DNA of 64,000 nucleotides, taken from positions 15,489-79,488 of the forward strand of contig CAKOMD010000003.1 in NCBI GenBank assembly GCA_934096555.1. The letters are read 5' to 3'. Source of the DNA: an uncultured Bacilli bacterium (GTDB lineage: Bacteria > Bacillota_I > Bacilli_A > RF39 > UBA660). The notes beneath the pieces were generated by a model. That model searched no databases. It had not been told where the DNA came from and was given only the letters and a program-made list of their open reading frames with translations. A program made the translations under genes and the position numbers. Numbering within the stretch: position 1 is the first letter of the stretch; each line of letters opens with the position of its first letter. Positions 3,447 to 51,486 of the stretch are shown here, piece by piece.

Positions 3447-4781
3447 GTGAATAAAGAAAGAAGTAAAAGAAAGTTAAATGTACAAAAAATATTTAATTTA
3501 GTAAGCCTGATGTTCTTATCAGCATGTATTATTTTTTATGGAGGAAGATTTATTAAATTATACATAGAAAATAACAAGGTAGAAGAGACAAATTCTATGG
3601 CAAAAAACATTAAAGAAAGCAATAAAGATAATGAAAATTTCAAAGTAATAAATGGTGAATACTATTTCAGTGGTACTGATGTAAACAATTATGTCTCATA
3701 TTCAAATCTATTATGGAGAATAATGAAGATAAATACTGATAATACAATTACTATGATATCAGATAGTAGTATAACATCACTAGCTAAAGGAGAAAATAAA
3801 GATTATAATTCTTCTTATATAAGTAAATGGTTAACAAAAAAAGATAATGAAGAATACACCGGTATACTTGAAAGCAATTTAAATAATATGAGTAAATACT
3901 TAACATTTACCAAAACTTGTAAAGATGTAATTGAAGATACTAAAAGTATATCATGTAAAGATTTAACCGAAGATACATACATAACAATACCATCATTAAA
4001 TGATTATGTAAACACTGGCGGTAATGATAGTTTTATGAATAATGAAGAATACTTTTATTTAATAAATAATAATAAAGAAAATAAATCATGGTATATAGAT
4101 AGTGATGGAAAGCTTGGCAAAAGTGATGGTACTGATGTAATAGGAATCAAACCAGTAATAACAATCAAAGCAACAATAGAAGCAACTGGTGGTGATGGTA
4201 CAGAAAGTAATCCATACATTTTTGAAGGAGAAAATAGTTTATTTGGAAGTTATGTAAAACTTGGCAATGATATTTGGAGAATATATGAAGTTAATGAAAA
4301 AGAAGTAAAATTATCACTAAATAATTACTTAACAATTAACAGTGAAGAACAAAAATATAATTATTCATCCAATGGATATCAATATAATGATACAAAAAAT
4401 AAGACATTAGCTTACTACTTAAATAATACATATCTAAACAAATTAAGTTATAAAAATTTAATTAAAGAGACAAAATTTGCTAATGGACTATATAGTAATA
4501 CTACAAGTTATGACTATACTAAAGTACTTAACGAGACAATAGATACTAAAGTATCAATACTTTCACTAGGAGACACAATCTTAAATAATAAATTAACAAA
4601 TTACTTTATGTCTACTGGAATAGATAAAAATAGTAATAATATGTATGTATTCCAAAATGATTTTAAATTATATACAAAATCATCTTCAACAAGTTTAAAA
4701 ATAGTACCAGTAATATCTATAGATAAAGATAAACTTACCAAAGGTACAGGAACTATAGATAGTCCTTTGGAGGTAGAATAA
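3447..4781 (+). CDS. membrane-anchored extracellular protein of unknown function with two related modules
   Basis: GTG start after an AGAGGGA RBS, and one N-terminal TM segment. Two halves each end in a G.GT.S.P motif (GGDGTESNPYIFEG, GTGTIDSPLEVE). Confidence 0.6.
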   Translation: MNKERSKRKLNVQKIFNLVSLMFLSACIIFYGGRFIKLYIENNKVEETNSMAKNIKESNKDNENFKVINGEYYFSGTDVNNYVSYSNLLWRIMKINTDNTITMISDSSITSLAKGENKDYNSSYISKWLTKKDNEEYTGILESNLNNMSKYLTFTKTCKDVIEDTKSISCKDLTEDTYITIPSLNDYVNTGGNDSFMNNEEYFYLINNNKENKSWYIDSDGKLGKSDGTDVIGIKPVITIKATIEATGGDGTESNPYIFEGENSLFGSYVKLGNDIWRIYEVNEKEVKLSLNNYLTINSEEQKYNYSSNGYQYNDTKNKTLAYYLNNTYLNKLSYKNLIKETKFANGLYSNTTSYDYTKVLNETIDTKVSILSLGDTILNNKLTNYFMSTGIDKNSNNMYVFQNDFKLYTKSSSTSLKIVPVISIDKDKLTKGTGTIDSPLEVE

Positions 4782-20741: not shown

Positions 20742-20954
20742 ATAAAAAAATAAGGCTAACCAAAGGACGAAAAATATTCCGCGGTACCACCTTATTTTAT
20801 AATATATACACTCATTAAGTTATAACGTAACAACCGTTTATACCTATTAGATATAACTGCTCCAGAACCATTTATAATAGCTTTTCTTATCTATTTTCAC
20901 CAAACATAGACTCTCTATAAATATTACTATTACTCTTTCCTTCTTCGCTTTACA
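20742..20954 (-). promoter_or_regulatory. T-box leader (tRNA-sensing riboswitch) upstream of dut-metG
   Basis: The minus strand carries AGAGAG followed by a GGTGAAA distal-loop element in stem I. The canonical T-box core AAGGTGGTACCGCG sits at 20780-20793, followed by a terminator and T-run ending at about 20744. Confidence 0.85.
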
Positions 20955-31919: not shown

Positions 31920-32342
31920 TCATTTTTTTCGTTTATTTGCAAAAAAATCAGATAAAATTTTTGAACATTCTGTATCATCAACAAAATATAAGTTAACAAG
32001 CTTGTTTATCCTCCTAATATCATACATTTGTTCGCTATTATTTTTTGCCCCAAAATAAACATTTTTAATTCTAGATTCAACAATTGCACCCATACACATC
32101 ATGCAGGGCTCCAAAGTGACATAAAGATCACATTCATCCAAACGCCAAGAATTGAGTTTTCCACAGGCTATATCAATTGCCACCATTTCAGCATGCCTAA
32201 TTGCACAATTTTTGCTTTCTTTTTCATTGTGTCCACAGGCTATAACCTTATTTTTGTATACAATAACGCATCCTACAGGAATTTCGTCCAAATCAAAAGC
32301 CTTTTTTGCTTCAATAAATGCCATATCAAGATATTTTTTCAT
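31920..32342 (-). CDS. tadA: tRNA-specific adenosine deaminase
   Basis: Starts at MKKYLDMAFIEAKKA. The HAEM and PCMMC zinc motifs are present. The ORF-track extension was trimmed. Confidence 0.9.
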   Translation of the reverse strand: MKKYLDMAFIEAKKAFDLDEIPVGCVIVYKNKVIACGHNEKESKNCAIRHAEMVAIDIACGKLNSWRLDECDLYVTLEPCMMCMGAIVESRIKNVYFGAKNNSEQMYDIRRINKLVNLYFVDDTECSKILSDFFANKRKK

Positions 32343-32429
32343 TATAAGCTCCTTTTCTATCAACAAGTATAACAAAAAATAGTAGCTAGAACCAGTTATT
32401 TTAATTATACCCATCAACAAGTAAAAAAA

Positions 32430-32445
32430 CGTTCCACGTGAAACA
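32430..32445. other. parS site 1 of 8
   Basis: cGTTCCACGTGAAACA (15/16). No adjacent DnaA-box-like 9-mer. Confidence 0.7.
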
Positions 32446-32518
32446 TAACATGATGCTATTAAAATTCATTTATATTAACTAAATATTAACAAGATAATTA
32501 TAAGTTTGTGGATATACA

Positions 32519-32534
32519 AGTTTCACGTGAAACA
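32519..32534. other. parS site 2 of 8
   Basis: aGTTTCACGTGAAACA (15/16). TGTGGATAT at 32507-32515 lies 3 nt upstream. Confidence 0.75.
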
Positions 32535-32668
32535 TAGCTGATTCAAAATTGAATAAAGTACCATTTTAAAGCAAATAACGCAAAATTAAATGAAATTGAA
32601 AATAAAACACACAGAAAATGTTCTTTTTTAGATAGTATACTTAAAATATAAAGACTGTGGAAAAATCA

Positions 32669-32684
32669 TGTTCCACGTGAAACA
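32669..32684. other. parS site 3 of 8
   Basis: TGTTCCACGTGAAACA (16/16). TGTGGAAAA at 32656-32664 lies 4 nt upstream. Confidence 0.85.
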
Positions 32685-32852
32685 TTTGTAATTAATAGTA
32701 TAAGATAAAAAATTTAGTAAAATTTATCATGATTTTCTAAAAATAGTTGTATAAATAAATTTATTTGAATTGAATAATAAAAAAATTCATTATAATTGAT
32801 TATATATTTAATATATTAAAAACATTTTAGTGATAAAATATGTTGATATACA

Positions 32853-32868
32853 AGTTTCACGTGAAACA
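32853..32868. other. parS site 4 of 8
   Basis: aGTTTCACGTGAAACA (15/16). TGTTGATAT at 32841-32849 lies 3 nt upstream. Confidence 0.75.
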
Positions 32869-33022
32869 TACACTTTTTTATTATGTAATTACGTCTAATA
32901 AATATAAATACATCATATATATGATTATAAAAATTACAAAAATTTAATATCATTTATTGAAGCAGTTAATTAAAATATATTTAATATCAATAATTAAAAT
33001 AATTTTAGTTGTGGAAAACTCA

Positions 33023-33038
33023 TGTTTCATGTGAAACA
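33023..33038. other. parS site 5 of 8
   Basis: TGTTTCAtGTGAAACA (15/16). TGTGGAAAA at 33010-33018 lies 4 nt upstream. Confidence 0.7.
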
Positions 33039-33185
33039 TAGCTAATTCAATAATAGATAAAATATCATTTTTAGCCGAATACATGCAAAATTAAGTGAAA
33101 TTTTTAAAAAATATAATGAAAATGTTCTTTTTTAAGATAATGTACTGAAAATATAAAAGTTTAATAATTTGTTGTGGAAAACTTA

Positions 33186-33201
33186 CGTTCCACATGAAAC
33201 T
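33186..33201. other. parS site 6 of 8 (degenerate)
   Basis: cGTTCCACaTGAAACt (13/16). TGTGGAAAA at 33173-33181 lies 4 nt upstream. Confidence 0.45.
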
Positions 33202-33345
33202 TTATATTTACAAAGAAAAAATACACAAATATAAAACAGCTTAAGATTAATATGTAGTTTAAATATTTAATTTTTAAATATTTATAATAAAAATCTAATT
33301 ATTATATTATAATTATTACTTTCATGATTACATGTGGAAAACTCA

Positions 33346-33361
33346 TGTTTCACGTGAAACA
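33346..33361. other. parS site 7 of 8
   Basis: TGTTTCACGTGAAACA, a perfect 16-bp palindrome. TGTGGAAAA at 33333-33341 lies 4 nt upstream. Confidence 0.85.
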
Positions 33362-33551
33362 TTATAATATAATTAAAAATAAAATAGAAATTAAATATCA
33401 TTAAGTTAATTACAACATTATTGTTTAATCTTATATAACTAATCAACGATATAGTTTTAATTATTATATATAATAAATCTGTTCACAATTTTGATATATA
33501 ATAATTAAAAACTATAGTCTAATTCAAATATAAAAAAATTGTGGAAACTCA

Positions 33552-33567
33552 TGTTCCACGTGAAACA
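33552..33567. other. parS site 8 of 8
   Basis: TGTTCCACGTGAAACA (16/16). TGTGGAAAC at 33540-33548 lies 3 nt upstream. Confidence 0.85.
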
Positions 33568-33576
33568 TAAAAAAAA

Positions 33577-33649
33577 GATACACACATTAATAAAATGTTA
33601 AAGCTGCTGGCTTCCGCCCCTGACTTGATTCCATCATTAATGTTGTATC
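33577..33649 (-). ncRNA. ffs: small (4.5S-type) signal recognition particle RNA
   Basis: The minus strand forms one long hairpin: GAUACAACAUUAAUGAUGGAAUCAA-GUCAGG-GGC-GGAA-GCC-AGCAGC-UUUAACAUUUUAUUAAUGUGUGUAUC. The GUCAGG/AGCAGC loops and the GGAA tetraloop are the conserved SRP domain IV. It is followed by a U-run, and a TATAGT -10 element lies upstream. Confidence 0.8.
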
Positions 33650-33728
33650 AACAACACTATATCACATTTTAACAAAAAAAACAAGTATATATCAATCGCG
33701 AACATTTGTATGCTTAAAGTATACAATA

Positions 33729-33744
33729 TATTTCCCGGGAAATA
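33729..33744. other. Noc-binding site (NBS) palindrome
   Basis: TATTTCCCGGGAAATA, identical to the published Bacillus NBS core ATTTCCCGGGAAAT. It lies just downstream of the gyrA stop. Confidence 0.75.
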
Positions 33745-38324: not shown

Positions 38325-38348
38325 AAATTATTTCCCGGGAAATAATTT
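38325..38348. other. Noc-binding site (NBS), extended 24-bp palindrome
   Basis: AAATTATTTCCCGGGAAATAATTT overlaps the recF stop codon, 23 nt upstream of the gyrB start. It is followed by an extra ATTTCCC half-site ending at 38351. Confidence 0.75.
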
Positions 38349-39565: not shown

Positions 39566-40027
39566 TTACATTTCTGTGTATTGCAAACTATTAAGTAATT
39601 TTTCTATTTTGATACACTTAGTAATTTGATTATCAATAGTAGTATACGGTGCCCTAATTTTTAATACTTTTCCACCTTTAAAATAAATTTCGGTATATTT
39701 TTTTTCAGCTTCTACATATCGTTCAATATTATTATAAGAAAGCCAAATACATTTATTAGATTCTGGTGAAGCTGTAGGAAATAATATTATTTTATTATAT
39801 TCAGAAAGTATAATAGGAGTTTTAATGTAATAATTAAAATGATCTATTACAAATTGTCTTTGAATATTATAAGAATGTCCATAGCAAAAACAACATTTCT
39901 TTAAAAACTTCAACGAATTACCTTTAAAAGTCAATCTTTTTGCCTTTTCTATAACCAAAACATTATTTTTCTCTATACTATCCTGAGTAAAACATAAAAT
40001 GTCTTCATTAATAATATAGTCTCGCAT
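39566..40027 (-). CDS. ComK-family protein
   Basis: Starts at MRDYIINEDIL. It aligns to Bacillus ComK blocks C.F.G.SY..R, K.PI, I.LFPT.S....C.W.S, T.I.F..GK and SY....Q. Confidence 0.7.
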   Translation of the reverse strand: MRDYIINEDILCFTQDSIEKNNVLVIEKAKRLTFKGNSLKFLKKCCFCYGHSYNIQRQFVIDHFNYYIKTPIILSEYNKIILFPTASPESNKCIWLSYNNIERYVEAEKKYTEIYFKGGKVLKIRAPYTTIDNQITKCIKIEKLLNSLQYTEM

Positions 40028-40271
40028 AAATTTTCCCCCTTCCCACATATAAAATATGTGAAAAATATTAAAGCATAAAGATATGTCGAATTTTGTAGAA
40101 AAATGTCGATAAAAGTAGTTTTTTTATTTTATTTGCACTATAGACTGCATTTTTAAGATCTATAACACTATCTTAAAACACATTTTACCAAAAAATAATA
40201 ACGTCATTCATATTTTTAAATGTAAGATATTTATAAAACATTTGATTTAGACTTCAATTCTATATTTTTAC

Positions 40272-40295
40272 TTATCCACATTAAATGTGGATAAA
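40272..40295. promoter_or_regulatory. inverted pair of perfect DnaA boxes
   Basis: TTATCCACA (40272-40280), a 6 nt gap, then TGTGGATAA (40287-40295). The pair lies immediately after the dnaN terminator. Confidence 0.75.
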
Positions 40296-41461: not shown

Positions 41462-41480
41462 TTTTATCATCCTCTTTCTT

Positions 41481-41596
41481 TTATTATATAATTATTATTA
41501 TTATACTGTTGATATTGTTGATATCTTTATTTTTTTCTTGTTTTATATACTTTTCTTTTTCCACAGAACCTGTGGATATTTCTGTTTTTATCCACT
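41481..41596. other. oriC part (dnaA-dnaN spacer): DnaA boxes plus AT-rich/TAA-repeat candidate unwinding element
   Basis: The boxes are TGTTGATAT x2 (41507-41524), TTTTCCACA (41557-41565), TGTGGATAT (41571-41579) and TTATCCACT (41588-41596). ATT/TAA trinucleotide repeats at 41491-41504 abut the tandem boxes. Confidence 0.7.
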
Positions 41597-42956
41597 ATAT
41601 TTTTTCTTTTAGTTCATTTATTACTATTTGGAGTTGTGGATTTGTCTTTAAATCACTCTCAATTCTCTGATATGCACTGATAATTGTGGAATGGTCTCTA
41701 CCTCCAAAGTATGTTCCCATTTTTGGAAAAGATTCACTAGTCATTTTTCTACATAAATAAATGGCTATTTGCCTTGGATAGTTAATATCTTTATTTCTCT
41801 TTTTGCCTTTTAAATCTTCAATATCAATTTTAAAGTACTCACATACAATTCTTTGAATTCTATGAACATCATTTTTATATACACTTTTCTCAGATACCTT
41901 ATCTTTGAGTGCCTCAATGGCAATATCGAGATTAACTATACCTCTATTCATCATCGATGCATAGGCAAATACTCTTGTAATAGCCCCTTCCAGCTGTCTA
42001 ACATCTGAATCATTAATATTAGCTATATATTCAATAACTTCAATTGGTATATCTTCCGCCGCTTCTTGATGAGATATTTTCTTTTTTATAATATCTACTC
42101 TTAAATTAAAATCAGGCGGTGTTATATTCGCAGTAAGTCCCCAGTTAAATCTAGTAATTAATCTATTTTCTAGCATTTTAAGGTCATCTACCGATCTATC
42201 AGAGGCTATAATTATCTGTTTATTAGAATCATGCAGTTCATTAAAAGTATGGAAAAATTCTTCTTGTCCTTTAGTGGCACTACCCAGAAATTGAATATCA
42301 TCGATTATTAGTACATCAATATTACGATACTTGTTTTTAAACGAATCAATCCTATCAAAACTATTTTTTTCATTGTTTCTAACCGCATAAATATAATCGT
42401 TTACAAATTGTTCACTAGATACATAAAGTACCTTTTTATTAGAATTTTCTAATATATAGTTGCCAATAGCATGCATTAAATGTGTTTTACCAAGTCCACT
42501 TTTTCCATATAAAAACAGCGGATTATAAGCTTTACCAGGTTTTTCAGCCACCGCTCTTGCCGCAGTAAAAGCAAATCTATTCGAATCACCTACTATAAAA
42601 CTATCAAAAGTATATTCGCTATTTAGATTAGCGGAACTACTACTTTGATGTGGAACCCCGATACTTTCTGTTTCATCAATAATCTTTTCTTCTAAAGTAT
42701 CATCTGTTATTTCGTTTTCCAGCTTAAATTGAAAATTAAAATTAGTTCCAGTAATCGAATTAAATATTTCTTCGATCTCATCTAAATAGTTTTCTTCCAA
42801 ATGCTTTTTATGTAAAATCATTGGAACTATAATAGTTGCAGTGTTTTTATCCAATTTGTATAACTTAGTATCTTTAAACCAAGTATCATAAGATAAAGGG
42901 GATATTCGCTCTTTAATTTTTTCAAGAAAATTGTTCCAAATAGTTTCTGTATTCAT
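41595..42956 (-). CDS. dnaA: chromosomal replication initiator protein DnaA
   Basis: Starts at MNTETIWNNFLEKIK after an AGGAGG RBS. GKSGLGKTHL Walker A, DDIQF and the C-terminal DNA-binding block GGRDHSTI are present. Confidence 0.97.
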   Translation of the reverse strand: MNTETIWNNFLEKIKERISPLSYDTWFKDTKLYKLDKNTATIIVPMILHKKHLEENYLDEIEEIFNSITGTNFNFQFKLENEITDDTLEEKIIDETESIGVPHQSSSSANLNSEYTFDSFIVGDSNRFAFTAARAVAEKPGKAYNPLFLYGKSGLGKTHLMHAIGNYILENSNKKVLYVSSEQFVNDYIYAVRNNEKNSFDRIDSFKNKYRNIDVLIIDDIQFLGSATKGQEEFFHTFNELHDSNKQIIIASDRSVDDLKMLENRLITRFNWGLTANITPPDFNLRVDIIKKKISHQEAAEDIPIEVIEYIANINDSDVRQLEGAITRVFAYASMMNRGIVNLDIAIEALKDKVSEKSVYKNDVHRIQRIVCEYFKIDIEDLKGKKRNKDINYPRQIAIYLCRKMTSESFPKMGTYFGGRDHSTIISAYQRIESDLKTNPQLQIVINELKEKI

Positions 42957-43108
42957 TAGCAAAACCTCCTGACTAAGTATTCCATTAACATTATTATATA
43001 ACAAATTTTAAATTTGTCTAGTACAAAATTTTAATAAACATGTAAATTAACAAGTTATAAACATCTTTTCAACAATATAATATCATATAAAATATGTGTT
43101 TTAAATGG

Positions 43109-43187
43109 TTATCCACAAATTTTGTCAAATTTTGTTATTAACAGGTGTTACTTTACTTTTCCACAGCCCTGTTGATATTGTTGATAC
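43109..43187. promoter_or_regulatory. DnaA-box cluster upstream of dnaA (oriC/dnaA promoter region)
   Basis: TTATCCACA (43109-43117), TTTTCCACA (43157-43165), TGTTGATAT (43170-43178) and TGTTGATAC (43179-43187). Confidence 0.75.
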
Positions 43188-43216
43188 ATAAAAAAAGCCT
43201 TTGTTTATGAGGCTTT
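43188..43216 (-). terminator. rho-independent terminator after HerA-like gene
   Basis: On the minus strand: AAAGCCT-CATAAACAA-AGGCTTT followed by TTTTTTTAT. Confidence 0.7.
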
Positions 43217-43219
43217 ACA

Positions 43220-44980
43220 TTAATTAGTTTTCCACTGTATCATCCATTTATCAAATACATGGGCGTTTGAACTCTGTGGTTCTGGATTAGGAAGTTCCAT
43301 TTTTACAATCATAGGTATCTTCATCATTTTACCAAAAGCCACACAAGTACCTGCTTGAAGTGATTTTTGCTTTTCTAAAACATCACTACTAATGTTTGGT
43401 ACCATCTTTTCAATATATTCTAAGTCAGCAGGATGATTAATCTTAAATATCAAGAAATTACTACATTGCGATAATACAGTTTCTGATAATTCAGTAGGTC
43501 TTTGTGTTACTAAATCCATCATAACGCCAAACTTTCTACCTTCCTTAGCTATTCTTTCAAATATATTATATCCAAGTATATCATTATCAATATCTTTCTG
43601 AACATATCTATGTGCTTCTTCAAGCATGATATTAATAGGCATAGAGCCCCTCGAAGGAAGACTCTTCATAAAATTAAAGAATATTCTAGAATAAATTTTA
43701 ACTAAAGCCTTAGCAAATCTATCATCAATACCTTCGAGTACAAAATTAATAATTTGTGCTCTCTTGTTACCATTCACTAGTATTAAGTCAGATATAAATT
43801 CATTAATAGTACAAAACTTTTCTACTTCAAAATACCTTCTCAAAGAACTATTAGCAATACTATGTAATTTAACTTTTAAAGCAGTACCTTCTGCATAAGA
43901 CTTCTCATTAAGAAGAACTCCTTCAGATATTAAAGTAAAATTAAGTGCCTCCTCTAAATCATCAATAGTAAAATATACAGGTGTATAATCTTCTTTCCAT
44001 TTAGTATCATTATCAATAAATTTCTTAATATATTCTGTAATAAGAACTCTCTCAGCAAATTGTCCTTGACTATCTATTTCAAAGCATTTTCTAAATTGTC
44101 TCGTATAACCAACACCAGGAACATCAACGTCCAAGTTAAGTTCTTTAGTACTACAACTAGTTAAAATAGAAAATATTTGGTCTCTTATTCTAGCAGATAC
44201 TTGATTAGAATAAAGAACAGATGTAATAGCGGTAGCAATTAAGTGATTCTTATACTTATTAGATTCTTCATCATTTCTTGCAAATAAAGAAACATAATTA
44301 AGCATTTTTTCAATAACCATAATTTGACTATAAGTACTAACATCAAGTAAATTAGCATAATCATCTACTGACATAAGCCATAAAGGTAATTTTAAAATAC
44401 TATTATTACTATCTGTATCAGTACTAAACATTTTATAATTAAAATTAAAATTATAACTATTAATAGATTTAAAAGCATTATCATATTCATCAGTATTATT
44501 AAATATAAATATAACACTATTAAATGGAATATAGTTAGGCATAGTAAATAAATTTTGTACTAGTCTAGCTACACCATATGTTTTACCACTACCAGTATTA
44601 CCAAATATAGCGGTATGATTACTCCACATATCATCAATATTAATTTTAACAGGGCTATTATTATATAAAGGAGATAGTCCAAGCATCATTGCCGTACTAT
44701 CATTGTAGCCAGTAAGTTCTGCTAGTTCATTGCCATTAATTATTCTTATTTTAGCATTAATACTAGGTTTTCTAATAATACCATCAAAAAATTTATCATT
44801 AATAAACTCACCTAAGAAAGTAATTTTAGCCTCATTATTAATTATTTCTTCAATTTCTCCTAGTATTTTTTTATTATTTTCCTCAAAAATAACATTTAAA
44901 TTAAGTAAGTCATCATTAATTACATTATCTATTTTAACGATAGCATAATTTTTACTAATTGCGGTAATTTCTTTAAACAT
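43220..44980 (-). CDS. HerA/FtsK-like (DUF87-type) hexameric ATPase
   Basis: 586 aa with an N-terminal HAS-barrel-like segment, Walker A AIFGNTGSGKTYG, Walker B MLEEAHRY and the VTQRPTELSETVLSQCSNFLIFK block typical of HerA. Confidence 0.7.
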   Translation of the reverse strand: MFKEITAISKNYAIVKIDNVINDDLLNLNVIFEENNKKILGEIEEIINNEAKITFLGEFINDKFFDGIIRKPSINAKIRIINGNELAELTGYNDSTAMMLGLSPLYNNSPVKINIDDMWSNHTAIFGNTGSGKTYGVARLVQNLFTMPNYIPFNSVIFIFNNTDEYDNAFKSINSYNFNFNYKMFSTDTDSNNSILKLPLWLMSVDDYANLLDVSTYSQIMVIEKMLNYVSLFARNDEESNKYKNHLIATAITSVLYSNQVSARIRDQIFSILTSCSTKELNLDVDVPGVGYTRQFRKCFEIDSQGQFAERVLITEYIKKFIDNDTKWKEDYTPVYFTIDDLEEALNFTLISEGVLLNEKSYAEGTALKVKLHSIANSSLRRYFEVEKFCTINEFISDLILVNGNKRAQIINFVLEGIDDRFAKALVKIYSRIFFNFMKSLPSRGSMPINIMLEEAHRYVQKDIDNDILGYNIFERIAKEGRKFGVMMDLVTQRPTELSETVLSQCSNFLIFKINHPADLEYIEKMVPNISSDVLEKQKSLQAGTCVAFGKMMKIPMIVKMELPNPEPQSSNAHVFDKWMIQWKTN

Positions 44981-48901: not shown

Positions 48902-48917
48902 TATTTCCCGGGAAATA
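48902..48917. other. Noc-binding site (NBS) palindrome
   Basis: TATTTCCCGGGAAATA in the divergent region between the GT2 gene and tmcAL. Confidence 0.75.
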
Positions 48918-51450: not shown

Positions 51451-51486
51451 AAATTATTTCCCAAATTATTTCCCGGGAAATAATTT
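51451..51486. other. Noc-binding site (NBS) 24-bp palindrome preceded by an extra half-site
   Basis: AAATTATTTCCC (51451-51462) is followed by AAATTATTTCCCGGGAAATAATTT (51463-51486). The site lies between the polA stop and the mutM RBS, and its 24-mer is identical to the one at 38325-38348. Confidence 0.75.

What the first reader, a model, noticed from the sequence alone, without database searches (positions are those of the whole stretch)
32507..33567. Seven of the parS copies are fused at fixed spacing to a DnaA-box-like 9-mer
Each of parS copies 2-8 is preceded, always on the same side and 3-4 nt away, by a related 9-mer. The 9-mers are TGTGGAAAA (x4), TGTGGAAAC, TGTGGATAT and TGTTGATAT. 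TGTGGAAAA is the reverse complement of TTTTCCACA, which fits the relaxed DnaA-box consensus TTWTNCACA. Exactly these variants (TTTTCCACA, TGTGGATAT, TGTTGATAT) also make up the two DnaA-box clusters flanking dnaA in this window (41507-41596 and 43157-43187). A repeated composite DnaA-box plus parS module could couple initiator titration (datA or DnaA-box-cluster type) with ParB loading. I do not know of any described example. Alternatively, the 9-mer is just part of a longer repeat unit or the site of a third protein.
Basis: partly seen in the sequence, partly recalled or inferred. Interest (0 to 1): 0.8.

Follow-up and report, generated by a model that had tools for sequence, protein, structure and literature searches.

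The report
DnaA boxes fused to parS array
In an uncultured gut bacterium (order RF39), seven of the eight ParB-binding parS sites clustered near the replication origin each carry, 3-4 bases away, a conserved site that looks like a binding site for the replication initiator DnaA. This suggests a built-in physical link between starting DNA replication and segregating the chromosome.

Summary
Between the SRP-RNA gene and tadA lie eight canonical parS sites, about 160 bp apart. Copies 2-8 each have TGTGGAAAA, TGTGGATAT, TGTTGATAT or TGTGGAAAC 3-4 nt away, always on the same side (7 composite matches; 0.00 expected).

It is not a hitch-hiking repeat flank. Six related genomes, found through RecF without reference to the motif, keep the array at the same locus. 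In them, 37 of 48 parS units keep the 9-mer. The 9-mer is as conserved as parS itself, while the spacers have diverged to background.

The 9-mer behaves like a DnaA box:
- Its fixed and variable positions match the boxes flanking dnaA in the same genomes.
- Both classes replace each other at an orthologous origin box.
- Very distant relatives carry the perfect consensus TGTGGATAA.
- It lacks the guanine found in all 86 parS half-sites.

Best reading: a chromosomal centromere array that also recruits DnaA, one DnaA per ParB site. Binding and function are untested.

Precedents exist (Caulobacter, Deinococcus cisII/cisMP, B. subtilis ywcI-vpr). My searches found no described one-to-one, fixed-spacing array on a primary chromosome.

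Verdict: new variant of a known kind; interest 0.62.

The parts
32343..33561 (.). Non-coding array region between the tadA start (ATG at 32342, minus strand) and the 3' end of the SRP RNA gene. About 17.5% G+C, with 8 parS sites at a median spacing of about 160 bp.
   Evidence: Only short, unconserved ORFs are present.
32429..32446 (.). parS copy 1 (aCGTTCCACGTGAAACAt). It has no adjacent 9-mer. It is the copy nearest tadA.
   Evidence: The first copy also lacks a box in L001-L005 and L143-L146.
32507..32534 (+). Composite unit 2, class B: box TGTGGATAT (32507-32515), gap ACA, parS AGTTTCACGTGAAACA.
32656..32684 (+). Composite unit 3, class A: box TGTGGAAAA (32656-32664), gap ATCA, parS TGTTCCACGTGAAACA.
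32841..32868 (+). Composite unit 4, class B: box TGTTGATAT (32841-32849), gap ACA, parS AGTTTCACGTGAAACA.
33010..33038 (+). Composite unit 5, class A: box TGTGGAAAA (33010-33018), gap CTCA, parS TGTTTCATGTGAAACA.
33173..33201 (+). Composite unit 6, class A: box TGTGGAAAA (33173-33181), gap CTTA, degenerate parS CGTTCCACATGAAACT.
33333..33361 (+). Composite unit 7, class A: box TGTGGAAAA (33333-33341), gap CTCA, perfect parS TGTTTCACGTGAAACA.
33540..33567 (+). Composite unit 8, class A with one A deleted: TGTGGAAAC, gap TCA, parS TGTTCCACGTGAAACA. It overlaps the 3' end of the SRP RNA gene by 6 nt. On the minus strand the sequence GTGGAACATGAGTTTCCAC followed by a T-run scores as terminator-like.
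   Evidence: The L001 ortholog has an intact TGTGGAAAA.
33562..33659 (-). Small SRP RNA gene bordering the array.
   Evidence: Rfam RF00169, 58 bits
31920..32342 (-). tadA, the first gene of the tadA-dnaX-ybaB-recR block downstream of the array. Its leader carries two box-like motifs in the opposite orientation: CTATCAACA at 32357 and CCATCAACA at 32411.
   Evidence: (repeat D9)
41471..41594 (-). dnaA-dnaN spacer. It holds 5 DnaA boxes, including the tandem ATATCAACA-ATATCAACA pair followed by a conserved TATAATAATAAT run. This is the likely oriC unwinding module and serves as the reference set of true DnaA boxes.
43005..43219 (-). DnaA-box cluster upstream of dnaA (7 boxes, including perfect TTATCCACA, TTTTCCACA and ATATCAACA).
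41595..43004 (-). dnaA. It is a canonical DnaA whose domain IV aligns with solved DnaA structures.
   Evidence: TIGR00362, 513.6 bits; 8BTG and 1J1V
33730..33743 (.). Perfect Noc-binding-site consensus ATTTCCCGGGAAAT between gyrA and the SRP RNA gene. It is conserved at this place in relatives.

Best explanation
The 1.2-kb spacer between the SRP-RNA gene and tadA lies about 8 kb from the dnaA-dnaN origin module. It is the chromosomal centromere array of an RF39 (family CAG-302) gut bacterium: eight canonical parS sites about 160 bp apart.

Seven of the sites are composite. A DnaA box, drawn from the same variants that this lineage uses around dnaA, sits 3-4 bp from the parS core, always on the same side and in the same orientation.

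What is shown: the composite exists, it is under purifying selection about as strong as that on parS, and its sequence behaves like this lineage's DnaA boxes rather than like a parS half-site.

What is inferred:
- Each unit binds one ParB dimer and one DnaA (domain IV) side by side, so the partition complex also holds a fixed quota of DnaA.
- The boxes are too far apart to cooperate with each other. I therefore infer that stable DnaA occupancy depends on the neighbouring ParB, or on ParB-mediated bridging of the array.
- The most likely purpose is to couple DnaA availability or activity to the state of the ParB/ParA (Soj) complex. This would fuse in cis the two pathways (DnaA-box clusters and Spo0J/Soj) that act in parallel and synergistically in B. 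subtilis.
- A Caulobacter-like role, in which DnaA at the centromere licenses segregation, is an equally compatible variant.
For: 1. The composite is real and non-random. There are 7 matches against 0.00 expected.

2. The array is conserved in relatives found without reference to the motif.
- RecF-anchored loci L001-L006 (RecF 97-65% identical) keep the array at the same syntenic place.
- 37 of 48 parS units carry a 9-mer with at most 2 mismatches, at a gap of 2-4 nt, on the tadA side. None of the 48 has one on the other side, and 0.43 are expected by chance.
- DnaX-anchored contigs L144-L146 show the same arrangement.

3. There is a clear conservation footprint.
- Information content is 1.89 bits/nt (class A) and 1.44 bits/nt (class B) in the box.
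- It is 1.85 and 1.80 bits/nt in parS, and 0.32-0.42 bits/nt in the 25-nt flanks.
- The spacers cannot be aligned between the window/L001 and L002-L004, yet the modules persist.

4. The 9-mer has the identity of a DnaA box.
- Array boxes are fixed at T2, T4, C5, A7 and A9, with C8 in 32 of 33. They vary at positions 1 (T/A), 3 (A/T) and 6 (C/A). The boxes flanking dnaA vary at these same positions, and also at position 5.
- Array variants are always a subset of the variants found at dnaA in the same genome.
- At the orthologous tandem origin boxes next to the conserved TATAATAATAAT run, ATATCAACA (class B) in this clade is replaced by TTTTCCACA (class A) in L007-L009.
- Very distant syntenic relatives (TadA 35-50% identical) carry the perfect consensus TGTGGATAA next to several parS sites in one array.

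5. The 9-mer is not a parS half-site.
- All 86 parS half-sites have G2, T3, C6 and (in 81 of 86) G9, and vary at position 5.
- All 33 boxes have T2 and A9 and vary at position 6.
- That G is one of the two bases ParB uses to tell parS from the Noc site (PMC7383237).

6. It is not a coding constraint or a hairpin.
- The 3-nt and 4-nt gaps put the box in different reading frames.
- ORFs in the region are short and unconserved.
- The class A box stays TGTGGAAAA whether the adjacent half-site is TTCCAC or TTTCAC (9 versus 9).

7. The biology is plausible.
- Soj/Spo0J regulate DnaA in B. subtilis, and deleting the DnaA-box clusters together with spo0J has a synergistic effect (PMC3245932).
- DnaA binds the Caulobacter centromere.
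- Direct ParB-DnaA interaction has been reported in Deinococcus and Vibrio (PMC13438810).
Against: - There are no binding data of any kind.
- None of the seven boxes in the window is a perfect TTATCCACA. Five have 1 mismatch and two have 2.
- Class A (TTTTCCACA) matches a parS half-site (TGTTCCACG) at 7 of 9 positions, so ParB cannot be fully excluded for that class.
- The boxes are about 160 bp apart. The B. subtilis index for stable DnaA-binding clusters would be about 0.02, against a threshold of 0.3.
- The composite is dispensable for a parS array. L007 and L008 (RecF 52% identical) have 4 and 18 parS sites at the same locus with no adjacent box, although L008 has a TTATTCACA once per ~520-nt repeat.
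- In some distant lineages the box lies on the gyrA side of parS, and the gap ranges from 2 to 7 nt. Any protein-protein geometry is therefore not universal.
- No parA or parB gene was found in the window or 10 kb beyond either end.
- The metagenome loci were selected by a pattern that requires one composite. Only their additional composites count as evidence.
- The DnaA recognition helix differs at two positions from E. coli and B. subtilis (GGRDHSTIISA versus GGRDHTTVLHA and GGRDHTTVIHA).
Confidence: 0.55

Rival explanations
1. The 9-mer is an auxiliary ParB contact, a degenerate third parS half-site. It would strengthen or orient ParB nucleation or bridging, and DnaA would play no part.
For: - TTTTCCACA matches the half-site TGTTCCACG at 7 of 9 positions and lies inverted to the adjacent half, giving GTGGAA-N7-TTCCAC.
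- P. aeruginosa ParB is reported to bind half-parS motifs (Kawalek 2018, cited in PMC13438810).
- A similar TGTGGAAAT-cttt-parS module is conserved upstream of soj-spo0J in a high-GC soil lineage.
Against: - All 33 boxes have T where all 86 half-sites have the G that ParB uses for specificity. They have A9 where half-sites have G9. The variable position is 6 in boxes and 5 in half-sites.
- Class B (ATATCAACA, TTATCAACA) and the perfect TTATCCACA in distant relatives are poor half-sites.
- The box does not track T/C variation in the neighbouring half-site.
- Arrays in L007 and L008 lack the 9-mer altogether.
Confidence: 0.12
2. The 9-mers are true DnaA boxes, but they act as a transcriptional control region for the downstream tadA-dnaX-ybaB-recR genes or for SRP RNA termination. 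Their pairing with parS would then be incidental or serve ParB-mediated silencing.
For: - The array lies directly upstream of an operon that includes the clamp-loader gene dnaX.
- Two more box-like motifs sit in the tadA leader.
- DnaA is a known transcription factor and regulates gidAB-parAB in P. aeruginosa (PMC13438810).
- Units 8 and 3 score as terminator-like.
Against: - Seven boxes spread over 1.1 kb, up to 1.2 kb from the tadA start, is not promoter-like architecture.
- Promoter-like hits are not enriched (23 found against 17.7 expected).
- The one-to-one pairing and fixed gap to parS have no explanation under this model.
- The copy nearest tadA is the one that lacks the box.
- The hairpin potential is absent in class B and shows no covariation.
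Confidence: 0.1
3. The 9-mer is the site of a third, lineage-specific DNA-binding protein, for example a nucleoid-associated or Noc-like factor, and only resembles a DnaA box.
For: - Binding is untested.
- Perfect Noc-site consensus motifs are conserved around the array and interleaved with it in some relatives.
- L008 has TTATTCACA fused to a half Noc site.
- The window's boxes deviate from the consensus by 1-2 bases.
Against: - The variant set equals that of the boxes flanking dnaA.
- The variants interchange at an orthologous origin box.
- The motif converges on the universal TTATCCACA in distant relatives.
- A separate protein with the same specificity as DnaA is an unnecessary assumption.
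Confidence: 0.08
4. The array is itself an origin, or an auxiliary origin combined with a centromere, like Deinococcus cisII/cisMP.
For: - It combines DnaA boxes, ParB sites and very AT-rich spacers (17.5% G+C).
- There is a precedent (PMC7671480).
- No GC-skew or gene-strand switch is seen at dnaA.
Against: - There is no skew switch at the array either.
- Boxes 160 bp apart cannot build a DnaA filament.
- The canonical tandem-box plus TAA-repeat unwinding module lies between dnaA and dnaN and is conserved in all clades.
- No such module exists in the array.
Confidence: 0.05
5. The 9-mer has no function. It is the flank of a duplicated repeat unit and has hitch-hiked with parS.
For: The window array contains a roughly 504-bp internal duplication (units 2-3 match units 5-6 at 71% identity).
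Against: - Flanks beyond the box and beyond parS have decayed to background, while the box stays as conserved as parS across seven genomes.
- The box persists in relatives with TadA only 35-50% identical.
- Conservation starts exactly at TGTG and ends at ACAT.
Confidence: 0.02

Closest known systems
DnaA boxes within the Caulobacter crescentus parS centromere (Mera, Kalogeraki and Shapiro 2014, as described in PMC6399470)
   Same: DnaA boxes and ParB sites share one origin-proximal centromere on a primary chromosome. DnaA uses domain IV at both ori and parS. The arrangement links initiation with segregation.
   Different: - I could not read the primary paper, so the box-to-parS spacing in Caulobacter is not verified here.
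- It is not described as a repeated one-to-one module at fixed spacing.
- It is in a different phylum, with a polar-anchoring context.
Deinococcus radiodurans cisII / cisMP (PMC7671480)
   Same: These are arrays of direct repeats in which each ParB-bound iteron is joined to a DnaA box. Both DnaA and ParB bind them in vitro.
   Different: - They sit on secondary replicons, upstream of parAB.
- They use non-canonical iterons and non-canonical boxes that overlap rather than abut.
- The repeats are tightly packed: 11 iterons of 18 bp within about 450 bp.
- They act as ori plus centromere.
- Here the parS sites are canonical, the boxes resemble the lineage's own boxes around dnaA, the spacing is about 160 bp, the replicon is the primary chromosome, and a separate origin module lies at dnaA-dnaN.
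Bacillus subtilis DnaA-box clusters (DBCs), especially ywcI-vpr beside a parS site (PMC2533591, PMC3245932)
   Same: They are non-origin DnaA-binding loci in the origin-proximal domain. One co-localises with Spo0J binding. Loss of the DBCs and loss of spo0J are synergistic and depend on Soj.
   Different: - DBCs are dense box clusters (index A above 0.3), whereas this array scores about 0.02.
- Their boxes and parS sites are neighbours, not fused modules.
- The parS sites of B. subtilis are dispersed, not arrayed.
E. coli datA (from general knowledge)
   Same: It is a locus of about 1 kb with about five DnaA boxes that lowers initiation potential. A bending protein (IHF) brings the boxes together. 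ParB bridging could play the analogous role here.
   Different: E. coli has no ParB or parS. The mechanism (DnaA-ATP hydrolysis) is untested here.
Vibrio cholerae chromosome 2 rctA/parS2-B (PMC3688505, PMC6399470)
   Same: A centromere site that also binds the replicon's initiator. ParB and the initiator influence each other's occupancy.
   Different: The initiator is RctB, not DnaA. It is a single site, not an array, and it lies on a plasmid-derived replicon.

Membership tests
DnaA box (binding site of DnaA domain IV) | A 9-mer within 1-2 mismatches of TTATCCACA / TTATNCACA | tested here: met
   Five of the seven have 1 mismatch and two have 2. Distant relatives have the perfect TGTGGATAA.
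DnaA box (binding site of DnaA domain IV) | The same variants and the same tolerated positions as the boxes at the organism's own dnaA/oriC | tested here: met
   Array variants are a subset of the variants flanking dnaA in each genome. Positions T2, T4, A7, C8 and A9 are fixed in both sets, apart from one array box at C8. Class A and class B interchange at an orthologous origin box.
DnaA box (binding site of DnaA domain IV) | Demonstrated binding by DnaA (EMSA, footprint or ChIP) | not testable with these tools
   The organism is uncultured and no data are available.
Chromosomal parS (ParB nucleation site) | A 16-bp palindrome matching TGTTNCACGTGAAACA | tested here: met
   Seven copies have 0-2 mismatches and one has 4. 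Seven matches are found against 0.20 expected.
Chromosomal parS (ParB nucleation site) | Origin-proximal location | tested here: inconclusive
   The array lies 8-10 kb from dnaA and its tandem-box/TAA-repeat module. However, no GC-skew or gene-strand switch is seen anywhere in 84 kb.
Chromosomal parS (ParB nucleation site) | A cognate ParB (and ParA) encoded by the genome | tested here: inconclusive
   None was found in the window or 10 kb beyond either end, or in the low-GC related loci.
DnaA-box cluster / datA-type DnaA reservoir | Several boxes within about 1 kb, outside oriC | tested here: met
   Seven boxes in 1.05 kb, or 4.1 per kb against 0.5 per kb for the whole window.
DnaA-box cluster / datA-type DnaA reservoir | Box density high enough for stable cooperative binding (B. 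subtilis index A above 0.3) | tested here: not met
   Four successive one-mismatch boxes at a mean distance of about 170 bp give A of about 0.02 (criterion from PMC2533591; spacing).
DnaA-box cluster / datA-type DnaA reservoir | Lowers initiation frequency when present | not testable with these tools
   This needs genetics or a heterologous assay.
Deinococcus cisII/cisMP-type ori plus centromere array | Repeated ParB sites, each joined to a DnaA box | tested here: met
   Seven of eight units, though abutting (gap of 3-4 nt) rather than overlapping.
Deinococcus cisII/cisMP-type ori plus centromere array | Located upstream of parAB on a secondary replicon and supports replication | tested here: not met
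   The location is between the SRP RNA gene and tadA, in the dnaA-gyrA-dnaX core-gene block. No parAB is nearby, and a separate origin-type module lies at dnaA-dnaN. Replication activity was not testable.

The most novel reading that the evidence does not exclude
The DnaA-box/parS composite is a dedicated two-protein module. DnaA and ParB would bind side by side and control each other: DnaA occupancy would gate ParB-CTP clamp loading or escape, or ParB would hold DnaA in the partition complex.

Under this reading the coupling is old and recurrent rather than a quirk of one clade. Three observations are compatible with it:
- It forms arrays across RF39-like Bacilli.
- A single TGTGGAAAT-cttt-parS copy is conserved upstream of soj-spo0J in a high-GC soil lineage.
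- In other contigs (L019, L021, L064) parS abuts tandem perfect DnaA boxes at a 2-nt gap.
Probability: 0.25. Interest if true: 0.85.

Novelty: new variant of a known kind. Interest (0 to 1): 0.62.

Why it matters
How bacteria coordinate replication initiation (DnaA) with chromosome segregation (ParABS) is a long-standing question. Known links are mostly indirect, such as Soj acting on DnaA, or come from single cases such as Caulobacter.

A naturally fused, conserved 30-bp DnaA-box/parS unit gives a minimal, defined DNA substrate. With it one can test whether DnaA and ParB cooperate, compete or block each other's movement.

The unit's natural variants form a ready-made mutational series:
- gaps of 2-7 nt
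- two box classes
- arrays without boxes

It also shows that a large, uncultured and genome-reduced gut lineage (RF39) concentrates ParB sites, DnaA boxes and Noc-type sites in one short non-coding region. Finally, such arrays break short-read assemblies, so this region is often incomplete in genome bins.

Tried and rejected
1. Hitch-hiking repeat flank. Rejected because the flanks have decayed while the box has not.

2. Coding constraint. Rejected for the RF39 array because the 3-nt and 4-nt gaps change the reading frame and the ORFs are short and unconserved. I also tested this for the high-GC TGTGGAAAT-parS module. A GTG-started ORF looked possible, but the ORFs are 9-67 aa, unconserved after parS, and frame-shifted in the gap-3 variants.

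3. Hairpin or terminator (GTGGAA...TTCCAC). Only 2 of 7 units score as terminator-like. The hairpin is absent in class B and shows no covariation with the T/C of the half-site.

4. Promoter elements. They are not enriched (23 against 17.7 expected).

5. Strict co-variation of box variants between the array and oriC. This holds for L006. In L081, L028 and L026 the array uses only TTATCAACA while the dnaA flanks are mixed. I therefore claim only that array variants are a subset of the vocabulary around dnaA.

6. Looking for parA/parB.

7. Locating the origin by skew. The result was inconclusive.

8. Unbiased extension through DnaX homologues. Four contigs all end within 0.1-0.7 kb upstream of tadA, inside the array, so they yielded only 1-5 units each.

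9. The primary Caulobacter paper (PMC4234595) is not held. I relied on a review instead.

10. A literature search for RF39 plus parS returned nothing relevant.

11. The viral-contig scan gave only 11 loci, mostly with a single match.
Full report
**1. What is there**

The window comes from an uncultured, low-G+C (about 27%) gut bacterium.
- Its RecF is 97% identical to 'uncultured Tenericutes bacterium UMGS1185' and 87% identical to 'Clostridium sp. CAG:302'.
- CAG-302 is a family of the order RF39, class Bacilli, in GTDB usage (PMC7676259).

The gene order on the minus strand is: herA-like, dnaA, dnaN, orf160, recF, gyrB, gyrA, SRP RNA, [array], tadA, dnaX, ybaB, recR, holB.

The array fills the 1.2-kb non-coding gap at 32343-33561.
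- It holds eight parS sites. Seven have at most 2 mismatches to TGTTTCACGTGAAACA, against 0.20 expected. Copy 6 has 4 mismatches.
- Copies 2-8 are each preceded on the + strand by TGTGGAAAA (four times), TGTGGAAAC, TGTGGATAT or TGTTGATAT.
- A composite pattern gives 7 matches, all in one orientation, against 0.00 expected.

Two refinements apply.
- There are two classes: A (TGTGGAAAA with a 4-nt gap) and B (TGTKGATAW with a 3-nt gap).
- Copy 8 is a class A unit that has lost one A. Its ortholog in L001 is intact.

**2. Is the 9-mer selected, or just part of a repeat?**

A RecF-anchored search of one genome per species, blind to the motif, returned nine syntenic loci.

In L001-L006 (RecF 97-65% identical) the array sits at the same place.
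- 37 of 48 parS units have a 9-mer with at most 2 mismatches to TGTGGATAA, at a gap of 2-4 nt, on the tadA side.
- None of the 48 has one on the other side.
- The background rate predicts 0.43. The units are related, so the nominal P value is not meaningful.

The footprint is the stronger argument.
- Information content per base is 1.89 (class A) and 1.44 (class B) in the box.
- It is 1.85 and 1.80 in parS, and 0.32-0.42 in the 25 nt on either side.
- In a MAFFT alignment of whole arrays, the spacers of the window/L001 and of L002-L004 cannot be aligned, but the modules persist.

Hitch-hiking is therefore rejected.

DnaX-anchored contigs, also blind to the motif, all break inside the array. 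The units they retain agree with the pattern: the first copy lacks a box, and later copies read TGTGGATAA-acta, TGTGGATAT-ttata and TGTTGATAG-tca.

**3. What is the 9-mer?**

Several lines point to a DnaA box.
- Array boxes are fixed at T2, T4, C5, A7 and A9, with C8 in 32 of 33. They vary at positions 1 (T/A), 3 (A/T) and 6 (C/A). The boxes flanking dnaA in the same genomes vary at these positions too, and also at position 5.
- Array variants are always a subset of the vocabulary around dnaA.
- The dnaA-dnaN spacer has two tandem boxes followed by a TATAATAATAAT run that is conserved in all clades. By my knowledge of the B. subtilis origin, this is the arrangement of an unwinding module. At those orthologous boxes, ATATCAACA (class B) in the window clade is replaced by TTTTCCACA (class A) in L007-L009. 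Both classes therefore serve as origin boxes in this lineage.
- A pattern scan of metagenome contigs requires one composite per hit, so only additional composites count as evidence. It found that every locus with two or more composites is low-G+C and syntenic.
- These loci include relatives with TadA only 35-50% identical. Several units per array there carry the perfect consensus TGTGGATAA, at a gap of 2-7 nt that is constant within a lineage.
- Within a locus the box is always on one side of parS, but in some distant lineages that side is the gyrA side.

**4. Rivals**

*A third parS half-site.* This is the most serious rival.
- TTTTCCACA matches TGTTCCACG at 7 of 9 positions.
- ParB half-site binding is reported in Pseudomonas.
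- However, all 86 half-sites have G2 and 81 have G9, while all 33 boxes have T2 and A9. The variable position also differs: 5 in half-sites, 6 in boxes.
- That G is one of only two bases by which ParB and Noc discriminate their sites (PMC7383237).
- Class B boxes and perfect-consensus boxes are poor half-sites.

*Coding.* Excluded. The two gaps shift the reading frame, and the ORFs are short and unconserved.

*Hairpin or terminator.* Only units 8 and 3 score as terminator-like. There is no covariation with the T/C of the half-site.

*Promoters.* Not enriched.

*An origin in the array.* Unlikely. The boxes are 160 bp apart, the array has no unwinding module, and there is no skew change there.

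*A transcriptional role for DnaA at tadA-dnaX.* This cannot be excluded, but it does not explain the one-to-one pairing with parS.

**5. How it most likely works**

Shown: a conserved composite with the sequence behaviour of DnaA box plus parS.

Inferred: one DnaA and one ParB dimer bind side by side on each unit.

By the B. subtilis index for stable DnaA sites (A above 0.3; PMC2533591), the array scores about 0.02. It is therefore not a classical DnaA-box cluster.
- I take the strict pairing with parS as a substitute for box-to-box cooperativity. Stable DnaA occupancy would come from the adjacent ParB or from ParB-mediated bridging of the eight units.
- This would place a fixed quota of DnaA inside the partition complex, where ParB controls ParA/Soj. 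In B. subtilis, Soj in turn controls DnaA.
- In B. subtilis, DnaA-box clusters and Spo0J act in parallel, and losing both is nearly lethal in a Soj-dependent way (PMC3245932).
- A Caulobacter-type role, with DnaA at the centromere licensing segregation, is equally compatible.

The composite is not essential to parS arrays. L007 and L008 lack it. L008 has instead one TTATTCACA fused to a half Noc-type site per ~520-nt repeat.

No parA or parB gene was seen in the 84 kb accessible.

**6. Comparison with what is known**

Precedents for an initiator at a centromere exist.
- Caulobacter: DnaA boxes in the parS region.
- Deinococcus cisII/cisMP: arrays of ParB-bound iterons overlapping non-canonical DnaA boxes, which act as ori plus centromere on secondary replicons.
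- B. subtilis: the ywcI-vpr cluster lies beside a parS site.
- Vibrio: RctB at parS2-B.

Nine literature searches found no description of three things together: canonical chromosomal parS sites, each fused at a fixed few-base gap to a DnaA box, repeated as an array and conserved across an order. I therefore file this as a new variant of a known kind. Its core idea is supported by sequence evidence but remains untested in function.

**7. Wider hint, only partly followed**

The same scan found two further patterns in unrelated, higher-G+C contigs.
- A non-coding TGTGGAAAT-cttt-TGTTCCACGTGGAACA module lies about 200 nt upstream of soj-spo0J. It occurs in at least 12 contigs with different flanks.
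- parS abuts tandem perfect DnaA boxes at a 2-nt gap in L019, L021 and L064.

No enrichment statistic can therefore be given. An unbiased offset survey is the needed test.

**8. Verdict**

- Observation confirmed.
- DnaA-box identity likely (about 0.75).
- The whole explanation, including co-binding and coupling, has confidence 0.55.
- Interest 0.62.

Noticed in passing
window 33730-33743, 38330-38343, 48903-48916, 51468-51481; also L124, L040, L136: Four perfect copies of the Noc-binding-site consensus ATTTCCCGGGAAAT (0.14 expected). They are kept at orthologous places in relatives: the gyrA 3' flank and the recF 3' end. Relatives also have a copy inside dnaX. In some distant relatives they are interleaved with the parS array, so ParB-type, Noc-type and DnaA-type sites share one region.
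   Followed up: partly
window 41471-41594 and the whole window; L010, L147: The dnaA-dnaN spacer has the tandem-box plus TATAATAATAAT arrangement of a Firmicute unwinding module, conserved in all clades. Yet neither GC skew nor gene orientation switches at dnaA, anywhere in the window, or 10 kb beyond either end. Genes such as polC, polA and rpoD lie on the same strand on the far side of dnaA.
   Followed up: partly
window 43220-44980 (minus strand): A HerA-like ATPase gene sits directly upstream of dnaA, where rpmH is usual. It is conserved there in all nine related loci.
   Followed up: no
window 39566-40048 (minus strand): A 160-aa ORF between dnaN and recF has no NCBIfam match. It is conserved in relatives (36-99% identity).
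   Followed up: no
window 40272-40294: An inverted pair of perfect DnaA boxes (TTATCCACAtttaaTGTGGATAA) lies just after the dnaN terminator. In relatives the sequences vary but the position is kept.
   Followed up: partly
window 32357-32365 and 32411-32419: Two box-like motifs (CTATCAACA and CCATCAACA, within the direct repeat ATCAACAAGTA) lie in the tadA leader, oriented opposite to the array boxes. They are conserved in L001-L005 and read ATATCAACA or TTATCAACA in some of them.
   Followed up: partly
L008 15700-17913 (array), L007 15100-15423: Relatives with RecF 52% identical have parS arrays at the same locus (18 and at least 4 copies, about 50-190 bp apart) without adjacent DnaA boxes. 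Many of these parS sites have extended palindromic flanks. L008 has TTATTCACA fused to a half Noc-type site (CCGGGAAAT) once per ~520-nt higher-order repeat.
   Followed up: partly
L023, L041, L042, L058, L063, L076, L091, L094, L127, L132, L142 and others (G+C 0.53-0.63): A conserved non-coding module, TGTGGAAAT-cttt-TGTTCCACGTGGAACA, preceded by GGGTTTTGARGG, is found in many distinct soil-metagenome contigs. In L042 it lies about 200 nt upstream of soj-spo0J. It has the same box type, gap and orientation as class A units in the window.
   Followed up: partly
L019 292-360, L021 about 4180-4225, L064 3007-3067: parS directly abuts tandem perfect DnaA boxes at a 2-nt gap (for example TGTGGATAAccTGTGGATAActTGTTTCACGTGAAACA) in unrelated contigs. 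In L064 this lies just upstream of soj.
   Followed up: no
L066 (54 parS in 9.7 kb, G+C 0.49), L076 (18 in 2.2 kb, G+C 0.62); also L024, L037, L090, L099, L107: Very large parS arrays without DnaA boxes occur in unrelated metagenome contigs.
   Followed up: no
L143-L146: Contigs of related species end 0.1-0.7 kb upstream of tadA, inside the array. Short-read assemblies break here, so the region is often incomplete in genome bins.
   Followed up: yes
window 20760-20954 (minus strand): A T-box leader (Rfam RF00230, 104.5 bits).
   Followed up: no
window 41595-41960 (DnaA domain IV): The recognition helix reads GGRDHSTIISA, where E. coli has GGRDHTTVLHA and B. subtilis GGRDHTTVIHA. Two substitutions (T to S and H to S) might relate to this lineage's relaxed box positions 1, 3 and 6.
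   Followed up: no
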